Assembly: GCA_040220235.1 (NCBI GenBank)
Contig: JAVJTO010000045.1
Length of the DNA: 20,116 nucleotides
Direction: 5' to 3' (one strand)
Origin: Coleofasciculus sp. B1-GNL1-01
GTDB taxonomy: Bacteria > Cyanobacteriota > Cyanobacteriia > Cyanobacteriales > Coleofasciculaceae
The notes under the pieces are model-generated. The model did no database searches, was not told the origin of the DNA, and saw only the letters and a list, made by a program, of their open reading frames with translations. Within the stretch, counting starts at the first letter, position 1, and each line of letters starts with the position of its first letter. The translations under genes and the position numbers were made by a program. This document shows, piece after piece, positions 6,321-20,116 of the stretch.

Positions 6321-6547
6321 TTTTCACTATATCACCATTATGTCTTTTTTGTCTCCCCAGGTTCCCAGGCACACGACGTTTACCCTTGCGGGTGTCGTGT
6401 TTTCTCCTTTTAGGCACTGTTAATTCAGTGCTGGGCGTTTCAAACAGAGTTAACTGCTTGGGTTCCGCCGAGTCCCGGCGTACCTTAACTAATTTCAAGC
6501 CATATTCAATAACGGCTTTGTGCTTAATGTTTCGTGCCGCCTGCTTG
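6304..6547 (-). pseudogene. tnpB: 3' exon of an intron-interrupted tnpB remnant
   Basis: Joined to 9095+ it reads CTECGHFDHA-D-KQAARNIKHKA (RuvC-III DxxAAxNI). The basic tail runs to a stop inside the riboswitch; no recognisable IS right end. Confidence 0.8.
6326..6334 (-). promoter_or_regulatory. Putative extended -10 promoter (TGnTATAGT) for the riboswitch/metE transcript
   Basis: Minus strand TGA-TATAGT, about 6 nt upstream of the aptamer 5' stem. Confidence 0.5.
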
Positions 6548-9094
6548 ATTAAAGTCGGCGACTCCCTCACGAGAGCCGCCGCTCTCCAAAACCGTGCTTG
6601 ACACTTTCGCGTCACACGGCTCCTCAGTAATACGGTGTTTGTCATACATACCTCGTTACCAGCATGTCGTCAATCCAGAACCATTCTGTGTTGACTGGCG
6701 GCTTAGGCTCGACTCTATTGCAGCCGGATTTTGCGCCATAACTGCCATCTAAGGCAGTCTTTGTATCGTGGCAGTGTCGATGGAGAAGTTGCCAGTTCTT
6801 ATATTCATCCCTTCCACCTTTTGATTTGGGGATGATATGGTCTAGTTCAATTACATCTCCATCTTTAAAATAGAGTTCACAGTGGGTACATTTCCCTTTT
6901 TGCTGTTTGAGCAGCGATGCTGTTCGCTTGGGCATCTCAGGATTTTTCCCCATTCTTGTACTCCAGTAAACCAGGTTACCGTCGTATGGTGACGCATCGC
7001 CTTTAACTTTTACATAGTCTTGTATTTTAGTGGCACTATGCTTAAGTAACCGGATGGGATTTTTCCCTTCCCTGGTTGCGAAGACCCAGTTATCACCGCC
7101 AATTGTTTTCCAATATCTCTTGGCTAGCCACTTATTGCCTTTATTTCTATGACGGTGTTTTGCCCATGATTCAAGTAAGGCGTAAACTCGGTCATCCATT
7201 TTAGAGAATGCCTTCTTGCTATTAACCCTTGAGTAGTAATTCGTCCATCCTCGAATGATAGGATTGAGTCTTTCTATCAGCCTCTTTTGTGAGGTTCCTT
7301 TATGGGTTTTTACTACTTCCTTTATGTTTTGGTAATGCTTCTTACACTTTTCTCTACTTGGGGTGATGATGGACTTAAAACCTAGCGGTATTCCTTTAGA
7401 GTTTTTTCCGGTTGTGTATTTTCCTACCGGAAACTGTTGAATATGGAATCCTAGGAAATCAAATCCTGGTTTTTGTTTCTCATATTCATAGAGAGTATGT
7501 ACTAATCTGGTTTTACTAGGTTTCAATTCCAAGCCTATGTCTTTTAACCATTCAGAGATTATCTCCCGGCATCCTTGGACAACAGTTAAGTCTTTGTGGA
7601 GGATTACAAAGTCATCGGCATAGCGTATTATTGAGACTGAATTACGTTTATCCCGTTTGGGAAGTTGATATCTTCCATCTGACCTTTTTAGGTCACAGGT
7701 TGCCGCGTAGTCTTTTATCCGCCATTCCATCCCGTGGAGGGCTATGTTTGCTAGTAACGGAGAAATGACCCCGCCCTGTGGCGTTCCCTCGGATGTCTCG
7801 AAGTGCTGCATATTATCCATCACCCCCGCTTTTAACCAAGCTCGGATTTGTCGGCGTATGGTGGGGGTTGTATTTAGTTTTTTGAGCAGTGCTTCATGGT
7901 CGATACGGTCAAAACATTTGGCTATATCAGCATCCAGCACATATTTGGCTTTATATCTGATTGCGCCGAATATTGCTTTAATCGCATCTTGAGTTGACCT
8001 TCCTGGTCTGAACCCGTATGAGTTAGGTTCAAAATGCGCTTCCCATTCTGGCTCTAATGCCATTTTGACTAGCGCCTGCAATGCGCGGTCTTTCATGGTA
8101 GGTATTCCTAGAGGTCTTTTCTCCTCCGTTCCAGGTTTGGGTATCCATACTCTCCTGGTTGGTTTGACCTTAGTCCCCAATTTTAAGTTGTTTACCAGGG
8201 TTAGACGTTGAAGAGGGGTCAACGATTTTACGCCATCCACACCTGCCGTCTTTTTACCTTGGTTGTCTTGGGAAACCTTACGCACCGCTAGACATTTTGC
8301 CGCCCAGGAATTCATCAGTAACTTTTGGAGGGAGCGAACTAATTTGACATCTCCACGACTAGAGGCTTGATAAATCCGTTTTTGTAGCTTGAACACATTT
8401 TTCTCTAGCTTGCGCCAGGGAATCTGGTTCCATTCATACATCGGTGTTTCCGTGTTCATGACTTATTTACTACTACTTTTGGCTTTATCTTCCGTATTAC
8501 CGTGAGTCCGTCAGCATATCCTTGGAGTTACTCAAGGCATTCGCTTCTGACTCAATCTCTCCGACCCGTAGCATCCAGTTAGCACCTACTCTAAGAATCG
8601 ACCCTCCTAGAGAGCATACGGGTGGTTACTTCGTTCCTAATAACCATTGGTTGTACCTTTGAGAACGATGCTCTCCACCAGGTTTTAGGGAAACGCTTAT
8701 CAGATAGTGCGGACCCTTCTGACTCCCTGACCTTGCCCTTTTGGGACTCCCAGCGTATCAGACCTTATTTCGCTGGTTCGCCCTTTTGATGGGTAAACAC
8801 ATCTTCACTTACGTTATTCATGGGTACTTGCTCAACGGTTGTCGGGTAAGGCTCCCTACAGTGCCGTCTTTCATCCCTGCTTTACGGATTGATGGCTAGT
8901 CGCTACCGTAAGGGAAGTGCTTTCACTCCTGCGCTTGGAGGGTGGGATTTGGGGGTTCTAGGATACTCACCCTCACCCACATGGTTATTAAGTTGTCATC
9001 TGTAAGGGATTTAAGTGCGAACTCAACCTTAATCGATTACCCTACAGAAGCCTGGAATCCTCCCATTACTGGGTTTCTCCAGAACGAATCGCAC
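6548..9094 (-). mobile_element. Complete group II intron (IIB, probably chloroplast-like class), about 2.55 kb
   Basis: 5' end GTGCGATTCG at 9094. Domain V GAGCCGTGTGACGCGAAAGTGTCAAGCACGGTTT (~6588-6622), domain VI ending ACTTTAAT at 6548. EBS1 TCCGCA (8708-8713) in a stem-loop is complementary to IBS1 TGCGGA (9095-9100). Splicing restores the exon frame. Confidence 0.93.
6642..8459 (-). CDS. ltrA: Group II intron reverse transcriptase/maturase with HNH endonuclease
   Basis: 605 aa. RT0 (GKKTAGVDG), RPLGIPT, SYGFRPGRS, GTPQGGVISPLLANIAL, RYADDF, X domain (LNPIIRGWTNYY), HNH (CTHC..DHIIPKSKGG..N..LLHRHCH). Confidence 0.97.
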   Translation of the reverse strand: MNTETPMYEWNQIPWRKLEKNVFKLQKRIYQASSRGDVKLVRSLQKLLMNSWAAKCLAVRKVSQDNQGKKTAGVDGVKSLTPLQRLTLVNNLKLGTKVKPTRRVWIPKPGTEEKRPLGIPTMKDRALQALVKMALEPEWEAHFEPNSYGFRPGRSTQDAIKAIFGAIRYKAKYVLDADIAKCFDRIDHEALLKKLNTTPTIRRQIRAWLKAGVMDNMQHFETSEGTPQGGVISPLLANIALHGMEWRIKDYAATCDLKRSDGRYQLPKRDKRNSVSIIRYADDFVILHKDLTVVQGCREIISEWLKDIGLELKPSKTRLVHTLYEYEKQKPGFDFLGFHIQQFPVGKYTTGKNSKGIPLGFKSIITPSREKCKKHYQNIKEVVKTHKGTSQKRLIERLNPIIRGWTNYYSRVNSKKAFSKMDDRVYALLESWAKHRHRNKGNKWLAKRYWKTIGGDNWVFATREGKNPIRLLKHSATKIQDYVKVKGDASPYDGNLVYWSTRMGKNPEMPKRTASLLKQQKGKCTHCELYFKDGDVIELDHIIPKSKGGRDEYKNWQLLHRHCHDTKTALDGSYGAKSGCNRVEPKPPVNTEWFWIDDMLVTRYV

Positions 9095-9257
9095 TCCGCA
9101 TGGTCGAAATGTCCACACTCGGTACAGATAAACCGTTCTCTATCCCGGTTGGCTTTATCGATATGACCACAGGCACTGCACTCTCTGGACGTGTCCCGTG
9201 GGTTCACCTTGAACAAGACCTTTCCTGACTTTGCAGCCACGTACTGAATCTTTTCAA
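9095..9257 (-). pseudogene. tnpB: 5' exon of the tnpB remnant (zinc-finger region only; upstream part lost)
   Basis: EKIQYVAAKSGKVLFKVNPRDTSRECSACGHIDKANRDRERFICTECGHFDHA: the TnpB V-P--TS--C--CG..F-C--CG signature, cut at the IS left end. Confidence 0.85.
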
Positions 9258-9355
9258 CGCATCGCGGGAGTCCCCACCCTCAATGAAATAGGGTGGGGAG
9301 GGATAGCGGATTGCCGGAGGAACGGAGGCAATCAACCCTTCGACTTGCGAGAGGG

Positions 9356-9590
9356 TTAATCTTGAGGTGTTTCTTGGGATTTGATGTAAGCCTTAACTCT
9401 TTCAATGGGAGCGCCACCAGTGGAAGCAACATAGTAAGAGCCTGACCAAAATGCTGACTTAGTATAAGTCTTTGACAGTTCCACAGCAAAGTCTTTTCTG
9501 ATAATTCGACGCTTAGGCAGACTTTAGGCTACCAATCAGAGATGATAAATTGTTGTCTGGATGAAAGTCTACCAATAGATGTACATGACC
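9356..9590 (-). pseudogene. tnpA: Y1 (HUH) transposase remnant, N-terminally deleted and frameshifted
   Basis: GHVHLLVDFHPDNNLSSLIGSLKSA, then stop/frameshift near 9510, then RIIRKDF..FWSGSYYVASTGGAPIERVKAYIKSQ. Confidence 0.88.
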
Positions 9591-9631
9591 ACCTGAGTGT
9601 GTTAGATTGATTTTAACAGGAGGAAGCGGCA

Positions 9632-10837
9632 ATGCCAACAAGACGTGTAACTTTTCGGCTATACCCCAATAGAAAGCAATCTTCAGCATTGCGGTATCAC
9701 CGTAAGTTGCACAAGGACTTGTACAACGCTGCTGTTTGTAATCGGTTCACTCAGTACCAAAAGTTTAACCATCGGGTTAACTATTTTGAACAACAAAACT
9801 CTTTGCCGGCTTTTAAGGAAGTTTGGACAGAATACAAAGAGTGCAACTGTATGACTCTACAAGCCACATTAAAACGTGTTGATTACGCATTTAATCGCTG
9901 GTTTAAGGGGTTAGCTAAACGTCCTAAATACAAGTCAATAAAACATTATTCTGGCTGGACGTATCCGAGTAAAACGGGTTGGAAAGTACACACAACGGGC
10001 GACAATGGCTATCTAGAGTTGGCTAAAATTGGCTCAATTCAGATGCGCGGTAAAGCCCGGAATTGGGGAACTCCGACAACTTGTACTATCGTTTACCGCA
10101 ATAGAAAATGGTATGCCAGTATAACCGTTAACCTAACTGAGTTGCAGGCAGCAACAAGACCAACAGATTTTGGCTCAGTTGGCATTGACTTTGGGTGCAA
10201 GTCAGCATTAGCCATAACCGATGGAGAAAATCACTCTTTTATCGAGGCTCCTAAGTTTTTGCGAAAAGCTGAAGCTAAGATTAAACATCTATCCAAGGGA
10301 AAGCGTCGTAAGAAAGCGCCCAATAGAAAGAAGAAACAGAAAGGCTCTAGTCGGTGGAAAAAGACCCAAGCAAAAATTAGCAAAGTAACTCGCAAGGTAG
10401 CTAATCAACGCCAAAACTGGGTACACCAAGTAGCAACAGATATTGTACGCTGTAATAGCTTCGTTGCTACAGAAAAACTAGAAGTCTCTAAGATGACCCG
10501 CCAAGCTAAAAAAGGTAAGCGCAAAAAGCAAAAAGCTGGACTAAACAAATCCATCTTAGATGTGGGAATGGGAATGCTAAGGTCAGCAATTGAATACAAG
10601 GTAAAAGACGTTGGTGGGGTTTTTGTCGAGGTTCCTACTCGCAAAGTGAAACCATCTCAGACTTGTCCTAACTGTGGAAATCAGCAGAAAAAGACCTTAG
10701 ACGAAAGAGTTCATCATTGCCATAAATGCGGATTTACCATAGACAGGGATTTAGCCGCTGCCTTAGTAATGCTTTTGTGGGCGTTAGGAATTCTACCGGG
10801 GTTTGGAACGAGCCTCGTAGACGAGTCAAGTCTCTAG
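9632..10837 (+). CDS. tnpB: RNA-guided endonuclease TnpB
   Basis: 401 aa. FRLYPN N-terminus, RuvC-I GIDFG, RuvC-II ATEKL, CPNCG/CHKCG zinc finger, RuvC-III DRDLAAA; AGGAGG RBS at 9618-9623. Confidence 0.95.
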   Translation: MPTRRVTFRLYPNRKQSSALRYHRKLHKDLYNAAVCNRFTQYQKFNHRVNYFEQQNSLPAFKEVWTEYKECNCMTLQATLKRVDYAFNRWFKGLAKRPKYKSIKHYSGWTYPSKTGWKVHTTGDNGYLELAKIGSIQMRGKARNWGTPTTCTIVYRNRKWYASITVNLTELQAATRPTDFGSVGIDFGCKSALAITDGENHSFIEAPKFLRKAEAKIKHLSKGKRRKKAPNRKKKQKGSSRWKKTQAKISKVTRKVANQRQNWVHQVATDIVRCNSFVATEKLEVSKMTRQAKKGKRKKQKAGLNKSILDVGMGMLRSAIEYKVKDVGGVFVEVPTRKVKPSQTCPNCGNQQKKTLDERVHHCHKCGFTIDRDLAAALVMLLWALGILPGFGTSLVDESSL

Positions 10838-10990
10838 CTCTACTTCAGAAACCCGTGAGCGTAAACAGACGGGAAGCATGAAGCAACTAGGACAGATGAA
10901 GCGTCAGAAACATAGCCCTACTGGTCTGGTTGTAGAAACCCAGACCTCAACGAAGTAGGGCTGGGTAGTTCATCAACATCTTCATCCCAA
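10790..10990 (+). ncRNA. Predicted TnpB omega/reRNA: scaffold to 10973, guide from 10974
   Basis: Inferred from the known architecture, in which the reRNA overlaps the tnpB 3' end and right end and the guide comes from the flank. The 5' boundary is approximate. Confidence 0.55.
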
Positions 10991-11175
10991 CATCCCTGAC
11001 AGGTGGGAATATCGAGAGAGCGAATTTGTTCGACTACAGCATTGGGATGGGGTCCATAACCCACTAAGTCGCCAACACAAACGATTTTGTCAGCGTTTTG
11101 GCGATCAATATCTAATAAAACGGCATCTAAGGCTGGGTAGTTTCCGTGAATGCAGGAGATAACAGCAAGTTTCAT
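10974..11175 (-). pseudogene. Truncated metallophosphoesterase (first 67 codons), cut by the IS right end
   Basis: 63/67 aa identical to the N-terminus of 18287..19096; ATGA overlap with the upstream gene. Confidence 0.9.
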
Positions 11176-11783
11176 GCTTTTTCTTCGTCTGGGTCTAACG
11201 ATTCTTTGATTTGTTGTTGGTAATGATGAACAGCTACATCCGATAAACAGCAATCTTTCAGTGTTTGGGCGATCGCGCTCTTATCCAACGCCACACCCAC
11301 CACTTCAATCCCACTGAAGCGCTGGGGACGACCTTCAAGCCAACGCGGAAGCGCTAACTCGGTGTAGGTACTATTTATCCCCGCGACAAAATCAAAATAA
11401 AAGGCGCGTCCATCGGCTAGGTCAAAAATTCCCTTGGCTCGATTCACATTGCCATAGGCTCCCTGGGTTAACTCCGCCCAAAAGACATCCAGACTAGCTG
11501 GATCAAGCACTTGACCGCTAATCGGCGCACGCCAAAGCTCAGGATTTCCCTCTGGGGTGGCAATTGTCACCCCTGGCACGACTTGGTCTGCCCAAACGTG
11601 CCATCCGGTATCCTGAACATTGGGTGGCATCACGGCAACGCGACGATAGCTGAGGTGATCTAATACGGACAACACTGGCTCGAGGGACTCTAAATCTAGA
11701 TGAAATCCCAATTCTATATAGGCAAGACACTCCAGCCGAGCTAAGTCTAATGGCAAAAACCGTATTTTGTTCAGGACTTTCAC
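11172..11783 (-). pseudogene. CobW_C/COG0523-related protein, N-terminal (P-loop) part missing
   Basis: GAYGNVNRAKGIFDLADG, GIEVVGVALDKSAIAQTLKDCCL (CobW_C-like). No GxxGxGKT; sequence upstream of AYIELG looks unrelated. Confidence 0.65.
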
Positions 11784-11956
11784 GAGTTATGGTTCCCGTT
11801 GGGCTAAAGACTGACGGGAACGTCACTTGGGTTCCGTCTCCTGCTAAAACATCGGTAACGGCGAAGCGGCGCAAATATTTTCGCCAAATCTGACCCAAAT
11901 CAGGCATTTCTGTATCAATCCTCAGTAAAGTGAGTATTTTAAGGGCGGAATGTGAG

Positions 11957-13447
11957 CTATAAATCAGTGAGCAGCCTTGCCTTTCTGAGAATAAAGGTAA
12001 GAACTGTCTCTTCTCTAGAAATGATGTCAGCTCTACCTTCCATGCCGGATTGGATGGTACATTGGCGTTCACCAGCAATTAGAGATAGGGTTTCTGGCTG
12101 AATCGTCACTTCGTAGATGCCAGCAACAGCACTAGCACCACTGCCTGGAGATGCACTGACACCATTACCTTGAGGTGCGATCGCGTCTGGAGAAATGGTG
12201 CTAACTGTACCTGGAAGCGTGCCGTAGTCGGGGTAGGGGCAGGCAGAGACTCGCATTTGCACCCGTTGATCTGTTTCCACTTTGCCGATATCTTGAGAGG
12301 GTACGGAGGTTTTGATCACTAACGGCGCTTCACTGGGGGCAATTTGGGCGATCGCTTCTCCCGAATTGACCACTTGTCCGGTGTTGCGGAGATTGAGTTG
12401 CTGGATAATGCCAGATGCCGAAGCGCGAATCACAGTACCAGTCAGTTCGGTTTCAATTTGTTGGAGTTCTTGTGTATCCCGGTTGAGTTGGTTCTGAATT
12501 TCAACCCGACGTTGGATGAGCTGCTCTCGTTCTTGGTTTAATCGGGATAGGCTGGCTTCCCCAGTAGCCCGTTCTTGGGCGATTTTCTCCTTAGCGATTG
12601 CTACACCTGCATCACTGGGATTGAGGGTAGCTAATGCCCCTTGACGTCTAGCTTGGGCAGCATCGACGGCTGATGAAAGCCGTTGGATGTCTTGTTTTTG
12701 CGCCTCGACGGTAGCTTTTTGCGCCTCTAGAGCTTGTTCTTGTTGTTCAACGGCAAGTTGGGCTTCTTGGAATTGATCCTGAGAAAGAGCGCCAGTTTCG
12801 GCAATGGGTTTATAGCGATTGCGCCTTGCTATGGCTGCATTTAATGCGGCTTCGGTTGATTTTAAGTTGGCTTCGGCTGATTTAAGAAGAGCCTGAGTTC
12901 GTTGTAATTCCTCTTGAGCTTGTTTTAAATTAGCTTCGGCTTCTTGAACTTGGCTTTGAGTGGTAATTTTTCTATCTCGATAGTCCCGTTGAGTACGGCT
13001 GAGTTCAGCTTGCGCGGAGGTAATGGTGCGGTTGGTGCGATCGCGTTCTGCGGTAATCTGTCTATCGAGAGCGATAATCTGGGCGTCAATTTGAGCCAGT
13101 TGTTGTTGATTTTGTTTAATATTACTTTGCAGTTGGCTTTTTTGGGTTTGCAGGCGGGAATCGTCTATAGTGGCAATAATATCCCCTTGGTTGACGGGTT
13201 GATTTTCGTTCACTTCAATGCGTTCGACGGTTCCCTCTGTTGCTGTTTGCACGAGACGCAGTTCACCAGCAGGACGAATGGTAGCCGGGGCTTTAACCGT
13301 AATTTTGTACTCTGTCAAAGCGGCGAGAGCAATAGCTACGCCAAATGTCCCAACTAAAAACAGTCCACCTAAGGTTGTCCAACGACTGATTGGGGGTAGG
13401 AATTCGTCGCTTTTGACAAGCGGTAAAGATGTTTCGTTAATGTTCAT
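11957..13447 (-). CDS. HlyD-family membrane fusion protein of a type I secretion/peptide exporter
   Basis: Single N-terminal TM segment, lipoyl-like halves (GTVERIEVNENQPVNQGD; IRASASGIIQQL), long Gln/Ala coiled coil, YPDYGTLPGTVSTISPD, IQSGMEGRADI. Likely ATG at 13447 (ORF extends to 13507). Confidence 0.92.
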   Translation of the reverse strand: MNINETSLPLVKSDEFLPPISRWTTLGGLFLVGTFGVAIALAALTEYKITVKAPATIRPAGELRLVQTATEGTVERIEVNENQPVNQGDIIATIDDSRLQTQKSQLQSNIKQNQQQLAQIDAQIIALDRQITAERDRTNRTITSAQAELSRTQRDYRDRKITTQSQVQEAEANLKQAQEELQRTQALLKSAEANLKSTEAALNAAIARRNRYKPIAETGALSQDQFQEAQLAVEQQEQALEAQKATVEAQKQDIQRLSSAVDAAQARRQGALATLNPSDAGVAIAKEKIAQERATGEASLSRLNQEREQLIQRRVEIQNQLNRDTQELQQIETELTGTVIRASASGIIQQLNLRNTGQVVNSGEAIAQIAPSEAPLVIKTSVPSQDIGKVETDQRVQMRVSACPYPDYGTLPGTVSTISPDAIAPQGNGVSASPGSGASAVAGIYEVTIQPETLSLIAGERQCTIQSGMEGRADIISREETVLTFILRKARLLTDL

Positions 13448-13492
13448 TTTTTTTGCTATGGCGCTACGTGAAGGAATAGGGAATAGGAAAAT

Positions 13493-13520
13493 GTAGAGAC
13501 GTAGCATGCTACGTTTCTAC
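13493..13520. repeat. GTAG-type REP-like palindrome
   Basis: GTAGAGACGTAGCATGCTACGTTTCTAC, same family as 1537-1560. Confidence 0.7.
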
Positions 13521-13615
13521 TATAATTGGAAACAAAGTCAATCATTAATTGATTCTCAACGTTTATTTTTAATCTTAATTTACACTCCATCCCAGTTCCC
13601 CATCTCCCTTTTATA

Positions 13616-15787
13616 TTAAACTGAATAATTCATGATCTCCAAACTATTTCCGGGTTGAGACAATAAATCTGACTGAATGCCTTGAAACTTAGCCTGACCA
13701 TTTTCTAACAAAATAATCCAATCTGCTCGCTGAATTACTCTAGGGCGATGGCTAATCAGAATCGTTGTTTTTCCTTGGCGATGGAACAGTAAATTATCTA
13801 ATACTTGGGTTTCATTTACAGGATCGAGAGCTGATGTCGATTCATCTAAAATTAAAATAGGTGGATCAGTAATAATTCCTCTCGCTATCGCCAAGCGTTG
13901 CTTTTGTCCACCTGACAGATTAGCACCAAATTCACCGAGGACTGTTTGATATTTATCGGGTAATTTACTGATAAATTCATCAGCTTTAGCAATCTGACAG
14001 GCTTTAACAATATTCTCAAAAGTTGCATCGGGTGCAGCTAACCGCAAGTTATCAATAATGGTACGACTCCAAAAATGAGCATCTTGGGACACTAAAACAA
14101 CCTGTTTTCGCAGGCAGTCTAGAGAGAGGTCGTCTTGGTTATAAATGCTATAGCGGATATTACCGGATTGGGGCTTGTATAACCCGGACATCAGTTTTGC
14201 CAAAGTGCTTTTCCCACAACCGGATTCACCAATAATGGCAATGACTTTCCCACCTGAAATTGTGAGAGAGAAGTCTTTCAGTAAGTCCACTCGACCAGGA
14301 TGGTGAAAATTGAGAGTTGTACAAGTAATCTCTGTATTATCCGGAAGGGTTGCCCAGGCTTTTTGACGATCATCTTGAACTTCTGGAGTCGCATCAATCA
14401 CTTCAGTAAGTCGTTGAGTCGCGAGTTGAGCGCGGATGAAGGGATTGATAAAGCTCAAGATGTTAATGATTAAGGTAAAGAAATTTGCACTGAGGCTATT
14501 AAACGCTAACAATTGCCCGATACTTAATCCTTGACGAATAACCAGTGTACTACCAAACCAGAGTAATAGAATACTACCATTTCTGTAGAGAAAACCGGAT
14601 AAGGTCGTGCTAACAATTGCCATTTGCATTGCTCGGAAGCTCAGGTAGGCTTGTTCCCCATAGCGCCGCTGAAATTCTTCCCAAAAAGACGGAGCAGAGT
14701 TGGTGCTTTTGAGGGCGATCGCCCCTTTAAAGGTTTCGACTAAAATTCCTTGATTTTCAGAGGATAAAACCAACAACCGACGCATTTTATTGCGAATGAG
14801 TGGGAACAACACCAGAGTCGAAAAAATCATCAAGCCAGCAACTCCCAAAGAAACAAGGGTGAGTACCCCACTGTAGAAAATCATAAACCCTAGAGAAAAG
14901 GCGGCAATGAAAATTTGACTGGGTAAGGTGATACCCACCTGAGAAATCAACATATTTATATCTTGAATATCCCGCAAGCGGCTACTAATTTCCCCACTGC
15001 GTCGGGATTCGTAGTAGGAGAGGGGTAAACTTAGAATTGCTCTACCAAATTCTAGGATTAAATCTAACTCTAGGCGTTGGGCAAAGTGAGCAATTAGGTT
15101 AGATTGCAAGAATCTTAGCCCCATAGCCATTAAGTTCATCACGAATACAGCGATCGCAATCCCCGTTAATAAGTCCGTATCCCGTCGGATTAGTACCTCA
15201 TCGGTGAGAATTTGGATAAAAAAGGGAGACGTTAGGGATAGCAAACCAATGACTAGGTTCAGCAGCAACGCTTCAGTCAGAAGGGGGCGATAGTTCCAGA
15301 TTCGTCCCACCAACCGCCACAAACTGCTAACCTTATTTCGATCGTCTGGAACTTGGTAAAATTCAGGACGTGGTTCGAGTAACAGCATGGCGTTATTACT
15401 CCAGCCTGAAACCAGTTCTTCTCTAGATAGGGTGCGAATTCCCGCTGCTGGATCAGCAATAATATACTTTCTGCCTCGTCGCCCATACAAAATGACCCAG
15501 TGATTACCCTTCCAGTGAATGATTCCAGGTAGAGGCAGGCTATTTTTATCAACTAATTCTAAGGGAACTTTCACGCCGCGTGCATTGAAGCCAAGTACTT
15601 TTGCTCCTTGCTTAAGGTTAAGCATCGTTGTGCCAAGTTGACCGGTTCCCGTCGCTTCACGAGTGCGAGTAATACTAAAAATTTGCCCATAATGTTTGGC
15701 AACGGATGCCAAACAAGCTGCGCCGCAGTCTTCTATACTATGCTGTCGAACAATAACTGGAGATTTCATAGACGTTTTACAAGTCAT
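13616..15787 (-). CDS. Peptidase C39 domain-containing ABC transporter (PCAT, bacteriocin/RiPP exporter type)
   Basis: Q-x5-C (RQHSIEDCGAACL) and HWVIL catalytic motifs, TM domain, Walker A GESGCGKST, LSGGQKQR, ILDE, H-loop ISH. Alternative start at 15769. Confidence 0.95.
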   Translation of the reverse strand: MTCKTSMKSPVIVRQHSIEDCGAACLASVAKHYGQIFSITRTREATGTGQLGTTMLNLKQGAKVLGFNARGVKVPLELVDKNSLPLPGIIHWKGNHWVILYGRRGRKYIIADPAAGIRTLSREELVSGWSNNAMLLLEPRPEFYQVPDDRNKVSSLWRLVGRIWNYRPLLTEALLLNLVIGLLSLTSPFFIQILTDEVLIRRDTDLLTGIAIAVFVMNLMAMGLRFLQSNLIAHFAQRLELDLILEFGRAILSLPLSYYESRRSGEISSRLRDIQDINMLISQVGITLPSQIFIAAFSLGFMIFYSGVLTLVSLGVAGLMIFSTLVLFPLIRNKMRRLLVLSSENQGILVETFKGAIALKSTNSAPSFWEEFQRRYGEQAYLSFRAMQMAIVSTTLSGFLYRNGSILLLWFGSTLVIRQGLSIGQLLAFNSLSANFFTLIINILSFINPFIRAQLATQRLTEVIDATPEVQDDRQKAWATLPDNTEITCTTLNFHHPGRVDLLKDFSLTISGGKVIAIIGESGCGKSTLAKLMSGLYKPQSGNIRYSIYNQDDLSLDCLRKQVVLVSQDAHFWSRTIIDNLRLAAPDATFENIVKACQIAKADEFISKLPDKYQTVLGEFGANLSGGQKQRLAIARGIITDPPILILDESTSALDPVNETQVLDNLLFHRQGKTTILISHRPRVIQRADWIILLENGQAKFQGIQSDLLSQPGNSLEIMNYSV

Positions 15788-15855
15788 TGAATGAAAAATT
15801 TTATGGCATTATCCCTAGATAGAATCAGGTGAAGCGATCGCCCTAGAAACAAAAA

Positions 15856-16587
15856 TTAATAGGTTTGAAATCCCTTCCCTATCCCATAACGCACCGTCCG
15901 AAATTCCACGCAGTTTGTCTCTGGGTCATAAAGCGTATAAGTAGCTTTTCCGGGTTCTCGTCCCACATTACCCACCCCAATTACTCGCCGAGGAGATACT
16001 GTCGCTGTCTGAACTGGCTGTTGACCATCAAGAGTGGTTACTTGGGAGGAGACGGAACCCTCTTGCAGTTCGTACTCAAACGTTAAACCAGACCGACCGC
16101 AAAATAGGTTATTCGCACCTATACGCATTAAGCGATCGCACAATTGCCAGGGGGGTGTCTGAGGAGTCAGTTTATCATCCACACTCACACTACTACCATG
16201 AATCAGCAAGCAATCGAGTTCAAAGAAGCCAAAATCTAGAGAACGAATCCATTCAACAGTTTGACGAGAAACGCTATTCCAAAGTTCTTGAACGGTATCA
16301 GCACCATAGTATTCGATCAATTGAGTCGGTTCGCCTGTAGTCCCCAATCCATAAAGAATCAAACATTGTTCCTCCCACCATCCTGTACAAACATTGGGAA
16401 TCAGTTCATTTGATTTAGGAAAACGAATCCGCTGTACTACCCGCTCGCTTTCTGGTCTAGGACTAATAAAATCCCCCAAGATATAGATATCCTCCACCCA
16501 CCGTTTCTGACGTTTGATATCCGTAAGTACCGCTTCATAAGCCGCGATATTCCCTTCAATTCCACTTAATATTGCCCAGTTTTTCAT
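15856..16587 (-). CDS. Metallophosphoesterase-fold protein with degenerate metal ligands
   Basis: Colinear with 18287..19096, but the motifs read SGIEGN, LGDFI, GWWEE, IHGS, CGRSG, GNVGREPGKATY. Confidence 0.8.
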   Translation of the reverse strand: MKNWAILSGIEGNIAAYEAVLTDIKRQKRWVEDIYILGDFISPRPESERVVQRIRFPKSNELIPNVCTGWWEEQCLILYGLGTTGEPTQLIEYYGADTVQELWNSVSRQTVEWIRSLDFGFFELDCLLIHGSSVSVDDKLTPQTPPWQLCDRLMRIGANNLFCGRSGLTFEYELQEGSVSSQVTTLDGQQPVQTATVSPRRVIGVGNVGREPGKATYTLYDPETNCVEFRTVRYGIGKGFQTY

Positions 16588-16652
16588 TGGTTATTCGTTA
16601 GCCGTCAAGTATCAAGCTCTATTCGAGTCAGAACTTACGCAAAACCTATACA

Positions 16653-18257
16653 CTACTTACGTTTCAATAGTGAAGCGACACCTATTGCACCAAACGCTAA
16701 TAGGCTTATTGCAGAATCAGGTTCAGGCACTGACTGCCGACCATTGATGTAGTATTGCGTCTTCTCCCAAACCTGCCCTCCGATGGTTCGCCCCAAAACC
16801 CTTCCATTTAGATCTCCATCGAGAAAGTGGATACCACCATATAACCGAGAAATTCCGGCTTCATCAGCAGCTTCTGAAAAGGTAGTCCAGCAAAGCAGTA
16901 CGTCAGTTGCTGGTGTACCCGTTTCAAAGGCAGAGCTATTGGCTGGTTGGATATGGCAAGCGCCGAAGTAATCATTCCCTGTAAACCGTTTCAGAATCTC
17001 GGCACTAGCGGCGCTGAAAGTACTGTGTCCCGATACATATTCGGCAAAAGGAGGCGTGACAAAGCTAATCTTCTGGTAAGGCAGCCAGGTTGAACCATCC
17101 ATCCACTGGGAGCCTTGATTAGAACCCGCCCAAGCGTAGATTTCTTGAACGCCCGTGTCTGGATTGGTGCGGACATAGGGGTGATTATCAGGTAATAGAT
17201 GGTTCTGTGCCAGATATCGGATGGCTGTCACCGGACGGACGTAATCATAGAATCGTTTGGCATCCCAAGCCGCAATCCCAGCGTCGAAGACAGCGTTGCC
17301 TAAGGCAAAGAACATCTTTACATCATCGTCAAGGGTGTGGATATCTCTCTGAGAGATATACTCGCCAAAAAGGTTCCAGTGACCGGGTGGCAGTACAGTT
17401 GCCGGACCGTCTGCCCAGTACTCAGCGATTACTTTTTGCTCGTCCGTGAGTTCGGCACTGTACTCAATGAGTTGCAAAGCCTGATCAATGTACTCCTGAG
17501 TGCCAAACTGCGCCGGGGGGGGAGGTAAGAATTGATCACCAGATGTCAGGGCAAAGGGGAACACCTCTCCCCAGTGGGGTGTGAGGAACTTTTGAACAGT
17601 AACGCCATTGTTGACGTTCAACGGTTGCCAGCGATTCGGATCGTTAACTGTATCCCAGGTGTTGACTGGCACATAGCCAGTGGTGTCAGCGTAACCGTTT
17701 AATTGGTTTGAACCATCGTTGTGCCGGAAATTAAGTAAAGCCTGGGCAACGACGTTACCAATTCCAGCCGCCGTACTGATGTCGATGGTTGGGGTGTAAG
17801 TGTAATCCAGGCTAGTCATCAGGTCATCAAATAAAGAAACCTGAGACGGGAATAGGTCTACCAGTGTGGTGTAAGCAGCATAGCTGATAGCCTCGCTTTT
17901 GTTCTCATCGGTAATGAACTCCTCAGAGACTTGGAGATTATCTCCCAATTGAGTGCCGATTGCTATTGGGTCGTAGGCAGCCCAGGCATCGAAGATGCTG
18001 GTATGTACAATGCCGAGAACCCGCGATACTGGCGTGGGTCCAAGATTTGTATTGCTGATTGCTTGTAGAGTGACATTGTTCCATTTGGCAACTACAGTTG
18101 CATCATTACTCAAGGTAAAGCCACCCAAGGTAGCAGCTTTGGTTGGTAACCCAAGAAATAAGCTTGCTACTGCTACTCCAACGGATAAGTATGATTTGAT
18201 TCTTTGTTGTGTGTGCAGCTCAGGGAGAGTCTTACGCCTAAAAATGGGGTTTTTCAT
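16653..18257 (-). CDS. Vanadium-dependent haloperoxidase/PAP2-superfamily protein with signal peptide and PEP-CTERM sorting signal
   Basis: AKRFYDYVRP (Kx6RP), PPFAEYVSGH, SRLYGGIHFLDGD; C-terminal VPEP, TM segment, KRK. Likely ATG at 18257 (ORF extends to 18299). Confidence 0.88.
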   Translation of the reverse strand: MKNPIFRRKTLPELHTQQRIKSYLSVGVAVASLFLGLPTKAATLGGFTLSNDATVVAKWNNVTLQAISNTNLGPTPVSRVLGIVHTSIFDAWAAYDPIAIGTQLGDNLQVSEEFITDENKSEAISYAAYTTLVDLFPSQVSLFDDLMTSLDYTYTPTIDISTAAGIGNVVAQALLNFRHNDGSNQLNGYADTTGYVPVNTWDTVNDPNRWQPLNVNNGVTVQKFLTPHWGEVFPFALTSGDQFLPPPPAQFGTQEYIDQALQLIEYSAELTDEQKVIAEYWADGPATVLPPGHWNLFGEYISQRDIHTLDDDVKMFFALGNAVFDAGIAAWDAKRFYDYVRPVTAIRYLAQNHLLPDNHPYVRTNPDTGVQEIYAWAGSNQGSQWMDGSTWLPYQKISFVTPPFAEYVSGHSTFSAASAEILKRFTGNDYFGACHIQPANSSAFETGTPATDVLLCWTTFSEAADEAGISRLYGGIHFLDGDLNGRVLGRTIGGQVWEKTQYYINGRQSVPEPDSAISLLAFGAIGVASLLKRK

Positions 18258-18286
18258 GCTAAATATGGGAACACCACAATTAATAG

Positions 18287-19096
18287 TTATCGCGTACAAA
18301 TGTGAGTTGGGTCATCGGCTTTTTCGGCATACTCCAGCCCTCGCGCCAACCGCCACGCAAAGATAGGAGGTAAACCTTTAGCCATAATGGCAGCACAGGT
18401 TTTTTGGTAGTCGTACTCAACCTCTCTAAGTGTTACCTGATCGGTGTCGGTGTCGTAAATAACATAAGTCGCATTGGGGCGTCCGTGACGGGGTTCTCCG
18501 ACGGAACCTACATTAACAATACGTTTGAGGGGAGCATTAAACGTTTGCTGTTGTTGTTGTCCCTCTGCCCTAATCTTGACTTGTAGTTGCCCTGCCTCCA
18601 GAGTACGAATATAAGGTACATGAGTATGTCCGCAAAAGAGGATATCTGCATCTACAGATAATACTCGTTCTGAGGCGAGAAAAGCATCTAAGGTCGGTAA
18701 CAAATACTCGTGGTTGCTCTGAGGACTACCGTGAACAAAACAGAGGTTTCCGTCTTTTAAGCTATGAGGCAATTGTTCCAAAAATTCTCGTGTTTCCGGG
18801 TGAATTTCCTGGTTAGTCCATTCATGGGCAAGACGACCCCGTTTTTCGGCTAATACTGAAGGATAGGAACATTCGCAGGCATTGAGTCCTTCGACAACAT
18901 CTTCATCCCAACATCCTTGGCAAGTGGGAATATCCAACGAGCGAATTTGTTCGACTACGGCATTAGGATAGGGACTATAACCTACTAAGTCACCCACGCA
19001 AAAAATTTTGTCAGCATTTTGGCGATCAATATCTAATAAAACGGCATCTAAGGCTTCGTAATTACCGTGAATGCAAGAGATAACAGCGAGTTTCAT
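18287..19096 (-). CDS. Metallophosphoesterase (calcineurin-like, YfcE/Metallophos_2 type) with Cys substitutions
   Basis: SCIHGN, GDLVGY, GCWD, VHGSP, CGHTH, NVGSVGEPRHG. Confidence 0.9.
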   Translation of the reverse strand: MKLAVISCIHGNYEALDAVLLDIDRQNADKIFCVGDLVGYSPYPNAVVEQIRSLDIPTCQGCWDEDVVEGLNACECSYPSVLAEKRGRLAHEWTNQEIHPETREFLEQLPHSLKDGNLCFVHGSPQSNHEYLLPTLDAFLASERVLSVDADILFCGHTHVPYIRTLEAGQLQVKIRAEGQQQQQTFNAPLKRIVNVGSVGEPRHGRPNATYVIYDTDTDQVTLREVEYDYQKTCAAIMAKGLPPIFAWRLARGLEYAEKADDPTHICTR

Positions 19097-19667: not shown

Positions 19668-19686
19668 AATGAGAATGGTTATCATT
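19668..19686. promoter_or_regulatory. Putative Zur (Fur-family) box between divergent hemB and zur-like genes
   Basis: AA-TGAGAATGGTTATCA-TT, close to the cyanobacterial Zur 7-1-7 consensus TGATAATnATTATCA; flanked by opposite-strand TAGAAT hexamers (19665-19670 +, 19692-19697 -). Confidence 0.7.
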
Positions 19687-19984: not shown

Positions 19985-20116
19985 TAGCGATGGTGAAAGC
20001 CCTCGTGTTTTAACCGAGGGATGAAACCGAGCGAAGCGTCCAGCATAGCAGCTTTAGCTGCGAGTCTTAGAAACCGTCCTGATGGTAGCTAATTAATGGA
20101 GTATACTGGGATAAGG
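19981..20116 (+). mobile_element. Left end of a second IS200/IS605-family element (runs off the window)
   Basis: TTAC (19977-19980), then AAAG (19996-19999) before hairpin CCCTCG/CGAGGG (20000-20020): the AAAG/TTAC guide-target pair known from IS608. Confidence 0.75.

What the first reader, a model, noticed from the sequence alone, without database searches (positions are those of the whole stretch)
10974..18916. Intact TnpB whose predicted guide matches a host paralog 8 kb away, 22/22 nt, beside a TAM-like motif
Seen: the sequence right after the IS right end, CAACATCTTCATCCCAACATCC (10974-10995), recurs exactly at 18895-18916 inside the intact metallophosphoesterase, preceded by TTCGA. The element's own left-flank motif is TTCAA. 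TnpB keeps D-E-D and the Zn finger while tnpA is dead. The match itself is expected from insertion into a paralog. Known: TnpB takes its guide from the right flank, and its TAM mirrors the TnpA target. Inference: either a natural self-targeting set-up (cleavage, homing into the paralog, or binding-only repression), or escape through one synonymous base (GTC vs GTT Val) in the TAM. Past cutting might also help explain the heavy local rearrangement.
Basis: partly seen in the sequence, partly recalled or inferred. Interest (0 to 1): 0.75.

Follow-up and report, generated by a model that had tools for sequence, protein, structure and literature searches.

The report
Transposon guide matching duplicated host gene
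A jumping gene landed in one of two similar copies of a cyanobacterial enzyme gene, so the guide RNA of its DNA-cutting protein also matches the other copy; that copy differs by one letter in the short motif the cutter needs, which probably spares it, though weak cutting is not ruled out.

Summary
The 22/22 match is real. The element is an IS605-family insertion (9258-10973) whose ends obey the guide/cleavage-site rule. Relatives carry the empty gene with TTCAA at this site, so the predicted TAM is (T)TCAA. The intact copy, 83% identical, has TTCGA.

The match follows from homology: 2 of the 8 TCAA sites in the empty gene have a perfect 16-nt match in the second copy. Selected escape is not supported: 48 of 54 homologs lack A at TAM -2, and the closest relative has TTCTA. 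TnpB keeps D186/E281/D373, but its -35-like box is deleted and, in this genome only, two reRNA pairs and the C-terminal tail are altered. Two other sequencing runs show the target unchanged.

Best reading: an ordinary homing nuclease whose cognate target is the empty allele, with the second copy spared or only weakly cut. Weak cutting stays open, because SisTnpB7 tolerates the same -2 A-to-G change. Homing into the paralog and cut-driven rearrangement are not supported.

The parts
6367..6547 (-). 3' end and right end of a second, broken tnpB element (boundary ambiguous within about 6349-6366)
   Evidence: Absent from the empty alleles, where homology stops at 6366; 88% copy on C107
6548..9094 (-). 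Group II intron with RT/maturase/HNH ORF (6642-8459) inserted in the second tnpB; not in the G007 allele
   Evidence: Pfam, Rfam RF00029 at 6548-6624, G007 alignment joins 6547 to 9095
9095..9257 (-). Zinc-finger part of the second tnpB, cut off at the left end of the IS605 element
   Evidence: Cas12f1-like_TNB hit; translation
9253..9257 (+). TTCAA left cleavage motif (C_L = TCAA); not the original host flank
9258..9330 (+). IS left end: DNA guide GAGT (9268-9271) and subterminal hairpin
   Evidence: 15 of 15 left ends with GAGT follow TCAA; 8 of 9 with AAGT follow TTAA
9359..9588 (-). tnpA remnant: about 187 nt of the 5' half deleted, plus a 1-nt frameshift
9580..9631 (+). tnpB upstream region: extended -10-like motif and AGGAGG kept, family TTGACA -35-like box lost in the tnpA deletion
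   Evidence: no + strand promoter hit at the scan threshold
9632..10837 (+). tnpB, 401 aa (family norm about 441 aa); D186/E281/D373, zinc finger, Q77 aligned to ISDra2 Q80
10790..10973 (+). Predicted reRNA scaffold and right end (DNA guide GAAA 10935-10938, C_R TCAT 10970-10973); variant at 10824-10829 breaks 2 of 19 tested pairs
10974..10995 (+). Predicted guide (first about 16 nt), taken from the interrupted native metallophosphoesterase gene
   Evidence: Family conservation stops after TTCAT/TTTAT in 22 of 22 aligned right ends; 16-nt guide in ISDra2 (PMC8612924)
10974..11175 (-). 5' remnant of the native metallophosphoesterase gene; 201 of 202 nt identical to the empty alleles
11172..11864 (-). 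CobW_C-domain gene remnant upstream of the native gene
18287..19096 (-). Intact second metallophosphoesterase gene (269 aa), 83% nt identity to the native allele and 88% to G014
18890..18894 (+). TTCGA, one base (G18893, TAM -2, Val GTC) off the predicted TAM
18895..18916 (+). 22-nt perfect match to the guide; encodes the conserved G-C-W-D-E-D-V-V motif on the - strand

Best explanation
An IS605-family element inserted at a TTCAA site in the native metallophosphoesterase gene (shown by empty alleles). About 1.6 kb of host DNA to its left was then lost, with the junction exactly at TCAA|left end. That fits a TnpA-made deletion or recombination between two same-direction copies (inferred). The element is now stuck: tnpA is dead and no cognate tnpA was found in the assembly. 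Its TnpB, if expressed, carries a guide from the right flank and would cut (T)TCAA + guide, which is the empty native allele still found in related strains. That is the known homing and retention role (inferred from the family). The second, 83%-identical gene copy matches the guide because the site encodes a conserved motif. It carries G at TAM -2, most likely as a silent variant older than the insertion. It is therefore not cut, or cut too rarely to matter. We see this arrangement because one with a perfect TAM would probably not have survived: a survivorship filter, not an evolved escape or a regulatory circuit (inferred).
For: Empty alleles with TTCAA + guide in 4 loci at the same genomic position (G002, G004, L118, L119), plus one distant homolog. 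The remnant differs from them at 1 of 202 nt, so the insertion is recent next to the 12% distance between the intact copy and its closest relative. TAM -2 letter in 54 homologs: T 28, C 12, G 8, A 6; the intact copy groups with G014 (TTCTA) at support 100/97. 2 of 8 TCAA sites have a perfect 16-nt match in the second copy. A at -2 in 24 of 24 left-end targets. Q77 is invariant and aligns with ISDra2 Q80, which reads the -2 A and is needed for cleavage (review PMC13639567 section 2.2). Single-base TAM changes abolished cleavage by GstTnpB2 (bioRxiv 2023.03.14.532601). The target and predicted cut zone are unchanged in G007 and in runs X2 and X4 of two other studies. In the same genome, 2 of 26 TnpB loci with an assigned right end have a perfect 16-nt second site, and neither has the motif that precedes its element's left end.
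Against: SisTnpB7 (TAM TTTAA) keeps about 40% activity after the same -2 A-to-G change and edits TTTGA sites without killing cells, provided the guide matches fully (PMC11043419). That is the situation here. The invariant -2 A of insertion targets has a TnpA-side cause (the T-4/A-2 hydrogen bond, PMC3201880), so it does not prove that TnpB rejects G. The perfect match is on the lucky side: only 2 of 50 uninvolved homologs match the first 16 nt perfectly, and the sister sequence has one mismatch at guide position 2. No genome with the TTCGA allele but without the element was found, so the order of events is not shown. Assembled contigs hide rare indels.
Confidence: 0.66

Rival explanations
1. 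Natural weak-TAM self-target: the TnpB-reRNA complex cuts the intact copy at a low rate. Breaks are repaired from sister chromosomes, so the sequence stays unchanged and the cell survives.
For: Perfect guide match and intact catalytic core. SisTnpB7 precedent for -2 A-to-G: 18.5% of substrate cut in the source data, with non-lethal editing that needs a full match. Related copies of this element are abundant in one RNA run (X15), though not this copy and not shown to be transcribed.
Against: Strict TAMs in GstTnpB2 and the Q80-type readout. Lost -35-like box. No 7.9-kb deletion between the two 294-nt repeats, no indel and no insertion at the site in G000, G007, X2 or X4. No RNA evidence for this copy.
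Confidence: 0.15
2. Selected escape: the intact copy had TTCAA, was attacked after the insertion, and survived by an A-to-G transition.
For: A-to-G is a single transition. The intact copy differs from its sister G014 at both variable sites next to the TAM (-2 and +2), and at +2 it shares the native letter.
Against: The sister and the neighbouring 7-gene clade have T (7 of 8) or G (1 of 8) at -2, never A. Sharing the native letter is common along the whole gene (32 of 121 informative sites), and so is a third letter (17 of 121), with no cluster at this site. The insertion is much younger than most of the branch on which the change could have happened.
Confidence: 0.07
3. The nuclease is effectively off (promoter damage, weakened reRNA, lost tail), so the TAM difference does not matter.
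For: TTGACA is present in 5 of 8 relatives aligned and missing here. This genome's variant breaks 2 of 19 scaffold pairs and removes 40 residues. Some TnpBs with normal sequences are inactive, such as HpyTnpB.
Against: The extended -10-like motif and ribosome site remain. The ORF is open, with 0 differences from G007 over 1,729 nt. G007, X2 and X4 have the full-length protein and intact scaffold together with the same target, so the variant is not needed for survival.
Confidence: 0.1
4. Domesticated RNA-guided or antisense repression of the intact gene.
For: The guide and any read-through RNA are antisense to the gene's mRNA, 84% identical over 294 nt including the start region. No terminator-like site was found in 9200-11300.
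Against: TldR repressors have degraded RuvC sites, new gene partners and promoter targets (bioRxiv 2023.11.30.569447 passages). Here the triad is intact, both IS ends are present, the target is in codons 61-68, and the arrangement is recent and seen in one lineage.
Confidence: 0.02

Closest known systems
IS605-family TnpB homing nucleases (ISDra2 TnpB; ISGst2 TnpB2)
   Same: Divergent tnpA/tnpB layout, hairpin ends with DNA guides, reRNA overlapping the tnpB 3' end, guide from the right flank, D-E-D triad and zinc finger, Y51/Q77 aligned to ISDra2 Y52/Q80.
   Different: Predicted TAM is (T)TCAA rather than TTGAT or TTTAT. tnpA is dead. The left flank is not the original one. The genome holds a second full guide match one base off the TAM.
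SisTnpB7 (Sulfolobus islandicus IS605-type TnpB, PMC11043419)
   Same: TAM ending in AA; a -2 A-to-G variant with a fully matched guide is the configuration tested there as a weak TAM.
   Different: Archaeal enzyme tested with engineered guides. Whether its -2 readout residue matches Q77 was not checked. Here the configuration is natural and untested.
TldR nuclease-dead RNA-guided repressors
   Same: TnpB-derived protein whose guide matches a host gene elsewhere in the genome.
   Different: TldRs have lost RuvC residues, sit with new partner genes and target promoters. None of this holds here.

Membership tests
IS200/IS605 family, tnpA+tnpB type | Subterminal hairpins at both ends, no terminal inverted repeats | tested here: met
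   Left and right hairpins seen directly; right hairpin shows compensatory changes
IS200/IS605 family, tnpA+tnpB type | Insertion 3' of a fixed tetranucleotide set by a DNA guide, without target duplication | tested here: met
   GAGT with TCAA 15 of 15, AAGT with TTAA 8 of 9; empty allele TTCAA|guide. The exact pairing scheme is partly recalled; guide-directed cleavage is from PMC3201880 passages
IS200/IS605 family, tnpA+tnpB type | Y1 (HUH) transposase tnpA | tested here: met
   Present only as a pseudogene, 78% identical over its last 50 aa to the TnpA of a related element; so a non-autonomous member
TnpB RNA-guided nuclease | OrfB_IS605 and TNB domains, guided_TnpB model | tested here: met
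   PF01385, PF07282; NF040570 at 255 bits against a cutoff of 100
TnpB RNA-guided nuclease | RuvC D-E-D triad and zinc finger | tested here: met
   D186, E281, D373; C345/C348/C363/C366
TnpB RNA-guided nuclease | Structured reRNA scaffold at the right end | tested here: met
   20 of 49 predicted pairs show a two-sided change; z = -3.67; 17 of 19 tested pairs kept in this copy
TnpB RNA-guided nuclease | reRNA is made and ends about 16 nt past the right end | tested here: inconclusive
   RNA run X21 had no reads on the stretch; X15 holds only related copies
TnpB RNA-guided nuclease | TAM equals the TnpA target and licenses cleavage | not testable with these tools
   Indirect only: residue 74 is M in 12 of 12 TCAA-flanked copies and T or Q in 4 of 4 TTAA-flanked copies; copies are related, not independent
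TldR repressors | Two or more RuvC catalytic residues lost | tested here: not met
TldR repressors | Target in a promoter, outside a transposon context | tested here: not met
   Target in codons 61-68; both IS ends present

The most novel reading that the evidence does not exclude
A natural weak-TAM self-target: a transposon nuclease chronically and sub-lethally cuts an intact host gene whose only protection is one silent base, while it destroys incoming wild-type alleles from related strains and so locks in the deletion. The promoter loss and the reRNA variant could then be attenuation of a self-damaging nuclease.
Probability: 0.15. Interest if true: 0.55.

Novelty: new member of a known kind. 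Interest (0 to 1): 0.27.

Why it matters
If the best reading holds, this is a tidy natural example of how TAM strictness limits where TnpB elements can stay inserted in duplicated genes, and it points to an untested cyanobacterial TnpB family with a TCAA or TTAA TAM. If the second copy is cut weakly, it would be a ready-made test of how much self-cutting a host tolerates from a resident transposon. I did not see that case described in the listings of four searches; the library lacks most subscription papers.

Tried and rejected
Structure prediction of TnpB from a 13-sequence alignment gave mean pLDDT 36 and was not used. No ancestral state was computed for TAM -2; the argument rests on extant letters and the tree.

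RNA evidence: X21 had 0 reads on the stretch (no test). X15 covers the element and other repeats but not the flanking host genes, so it reports other copies.

A homing-driven sweep across species was considered. G007 is 92.5% identical to G000 over 152 kb sampled from 20 of its 1,440 contigs (longest exact run 769 nt), yet identical over 2,045 nt around the element. I rejected this as evidence because an unrelated region (C135) is also about 100% identical in G007, so mixed binning or shared accessory DNA explains it.

Gene conversion from the native copy into the intact copy: no tract seen. The 3' part of the interrupted gene and further copies of the element were not found in the assembly. 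Six other family copies in relatives had no homologous second flank at the guide (0 of 6). Paper search returned only unrelated papers. Look-ups of earlier findings by place (near), words and sequence were empty.
Full report
OBSERVATION. The window is a whole 20,116-nt contig (C45) of an 8.66-Mb, 172-contig cyanobacterial assembly. Same-genus records are titled Coleofasciculus. 10974-10995 and 18895-18916 are identical for exactly 22 nt and are the only copies of 18 nt or more in the assembly. They lie in a 294-nt, 84%-identical repeat: the 5' part of a metallophosphoesterase gene and the end of the gene before it. That repeat also holds exact runs of 20 and 39 nt.

THE ELEMENT. It runs from 9258 to 10973 and is single-copy in the assembly. 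In 22 of 22 aligned right ends, conservation stops after TTCAT or TTTAT, which fixes the guide start at 10974. Of 24 distinct left ends from relatives and the own genome, 15 have the DNA guide GAGT and follow TCAA; 9 have AAGT and follow TTAA (8) or ATAA (1). Position -2 is A in 24 of 24, and position -5 is T in 12 of 24. That tally includes related ends that carry other cargo. tnpA has lost about 187 nt and is frameshifted; the best other TnpA in the assembly is 38% identical to a family TnpA. TnpB has the full triad and zinc finger. The tnpA deletion also removes a TTGACA box found upstream of tnpB in 5 of 8 relatives aligned. A change at 10824-10829 shortens the protein from 441 to 401 aa. 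The same change breaks 2 of 19 tested reRNA pairs. It occurs in one G002 copy, but not in G007, X2 or X4.

HISTORY OF THE LOCUS. G002, G004 and two metagenome contigs keep the ancestral order: metE, cobalamin riboswitch, two metallophosphoesterase genes, CobW-domain gene. All have TTCAA followed by the guide sequence at the insertion point. The remnant here differs from them at 1 of 202 nt. The present left flank is a broken second tnpB, and about 1,590 nt of host DNA are gone. The junction is exactly TCAA|left end, which points to TnpA or to recombination between two copies (inference). It does not look like repair of a TnpB cut, which falls 15-21 nt from the TAM (PMC8612924 passages). The intact gene belongs to a separate block: it is 83% identical to the native allele and 88% to G014, its sister in the tree. 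Among 8 other genomes of the genus, only G007 holds that block near-identically.

IS THE MATCH SURPRISING? Given insertion into this gene, only mildly. 7.6-8.0% of positions begin a perfect 16-nt match, and 2 of the 8 TCAA sites do. One of those two, near 19025, even has TCAA conserved in both copies plus a 26-nt run; it was not the site used. Against this, only 2 of 50 uninvolved homologs match the first 16 nt perfectly, and 34 have one mismatch (55 genes collected, 1 dropped for lacking the motif). The situation is uncommon among elements. In the own genome, 26 of 29 TnpB rows got a right end by an automatic rule that I did not verify one by one, and 2 of the 26 have a perfect second site. 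The other case (C3) sits in a dispersed repeat with 3 perfect sites, none preceded by the TTTAA that I read by eye before its left end. Six family copies in relatives had no homologous second flank.

WAS THERE AN ESCAPE? The -2 base is a four-fold silent position. In 54 homologs it is T 28, C 12, G 8 and A 6. G014 has T, and the neighbouring clade has T in 6 of 7 and G in 1. I did not check whether the 6 other G-bearing genomes carry such an element. At 121 sites where the native allele and G014 differ, the intact copy follows G014 at 72, the native allele at 32 and neither at 17, so the pattern at +2 and -2 is background. The TTCGA allele was found only together with the element, so the order of events is inferred, not shown. 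A silent variant older than the insertion is the simplest reading.

WOULD TTCGA BE CUT? The literature points both ways. Against cutting: single-base TAM changes abolished GstTnpB2 activity (bioRxiv 2023.03.14.532601, section read). ISDra2 reads the -2 A with Q80 and needs it (review PMC13639567, section read), and Q77 here aligns to it and is invariant. For cutting: SisTnpB7 loses only about 60% of its activity on -2 A-to-G and edits such sites without killing cells when the guide matches fully (PMC11043419, one section, passages and supplement rows read). The invariant A of insertion sites is explained on the TnpA side (PMC3201880 passages), so it cannot settle the question. Residue 74 co-varies with the target (M in 12 of 12 TCAA copies; T or Q in 4 of 4 TTAA copies), which supports a TAM that tracks the TnpA target. 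Supplements of the bioRxiv preprints could not be seen and hold the per-position TAM data.

IS THERE DAMAGE? G007 and runs X2 and X4 (two studies other than the possible source run) carry the element and the intact copy together. Their 30 and 31 differences over 13870-18899 and 13870-18990 equal the counts expected from the differences known in G007 and the listed rows, which leaves none for the TAM or target. This is inferred from counts, because 25 rows of the table were not shown. Contigs drop rare variants, and X2 has a contig break and extra depth near 18875-18899 that I could not resolve. G007 may not be independent of G000's species. Two-sided homing into the intact copy is unlikely because the left homology arm is gone. 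One-sided repair would delete 7.9 kb, which is not seen.

VERDICT. This is an ordinary, immobile IS605/TnpB element whose cognate target is the empty allele of related strains. The second gene copy matches by descent and is most likely spared by a pre-existing silent base (0.66). Weak self-cutting (0.15), a silent nuclease (0.10), selected escape (0.07) and regulation (0.02) remain. Other papers: bioRxiv 2023.11.30.569447 passages; bioRxiv 2026.09.24.754181 passages, nothing used. The link of this gene cluster to zinc limitation is recalled; one search gave listings only.

Noticed in passing
TnpB residue 74 (window 9851-9853) and loci L003-L043: The residue aligned with the ISDra2 K76/F77 TAM helix is M in 12 of 12 TCAA-flanked copies and T or Q in 4 of 4 TTAA-flanked copies, in step with the left-end DNA guide (GAGT or AAGT): a candidate natural TAM switch.
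   Followed up: partly
window:10824-10829: A 6-nt variant that replaces 5 nt, shared with one G002 copy but not with the otherwise identical G007 copy; origin unexplained, possibly short conversion between family copies. A G021 copy has a 30-nt insertion at the same spot.
   Followed up: partly
window:6548-9094 and G000:C161:9961-11913: Group II introns sit inside two different tnpB genes of this genome; the two introns are about 71% identical.
   Followed up: no
G000:C3:2808-4100: Another TnpB with an open 426-aa frame has its guide in a dispersed repeat, with 23 other sites within 1 mismatch, 3 of them perfect, and none preceded by its apparent TTTAA target.
   Followed up: partly
G000:C6:59691, C87 and C170 contig starts: Elements with a left end like this one, each after TCAA, but followed by a different gene on the opposite strand (IscB/IsrB-like by recall, not tested).
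   Followed up: no
G000:C135:72586-72630: A short perfect palindrome made of two right-end hairpin halves, with TTCAT on both strands; also seen in X2 and X4.
   Followed up: partly
window:187-6366 and 10974-11750: The metE and metallophosphoesterase region is 97-99.5% identical to G002, whose other sampled regions are 92-94% identical: the locus seems to be exchanged between species.
   Followed up: partly
window:13448-13870, 11751-11944, 19993-20116: Insertions or replacements that differ between G000 and G007/X2/X4; 11865-11911 matches the ends of contigs C163 and C31, probably another mobile element end.
   Followed up: no
window:16653-18299 (-): A vanadium haloperoxidase-like gene (DUF6851, VCPO_2nd) sits between the two metallophosphoesterase genes of the second cluster, which are adjacent in relatives.
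   Followed up: no
window:19264-19984: Truncated hemB (ALAD) and fur-family genes, with a palindrome at 19670 that resembles a Zur box (motif recalled).
   Followed up: no
window:6187-6329 (-): Cobalamin riboswitch upstream of metE, directly next to the second tnpB element.
   Followed up: no
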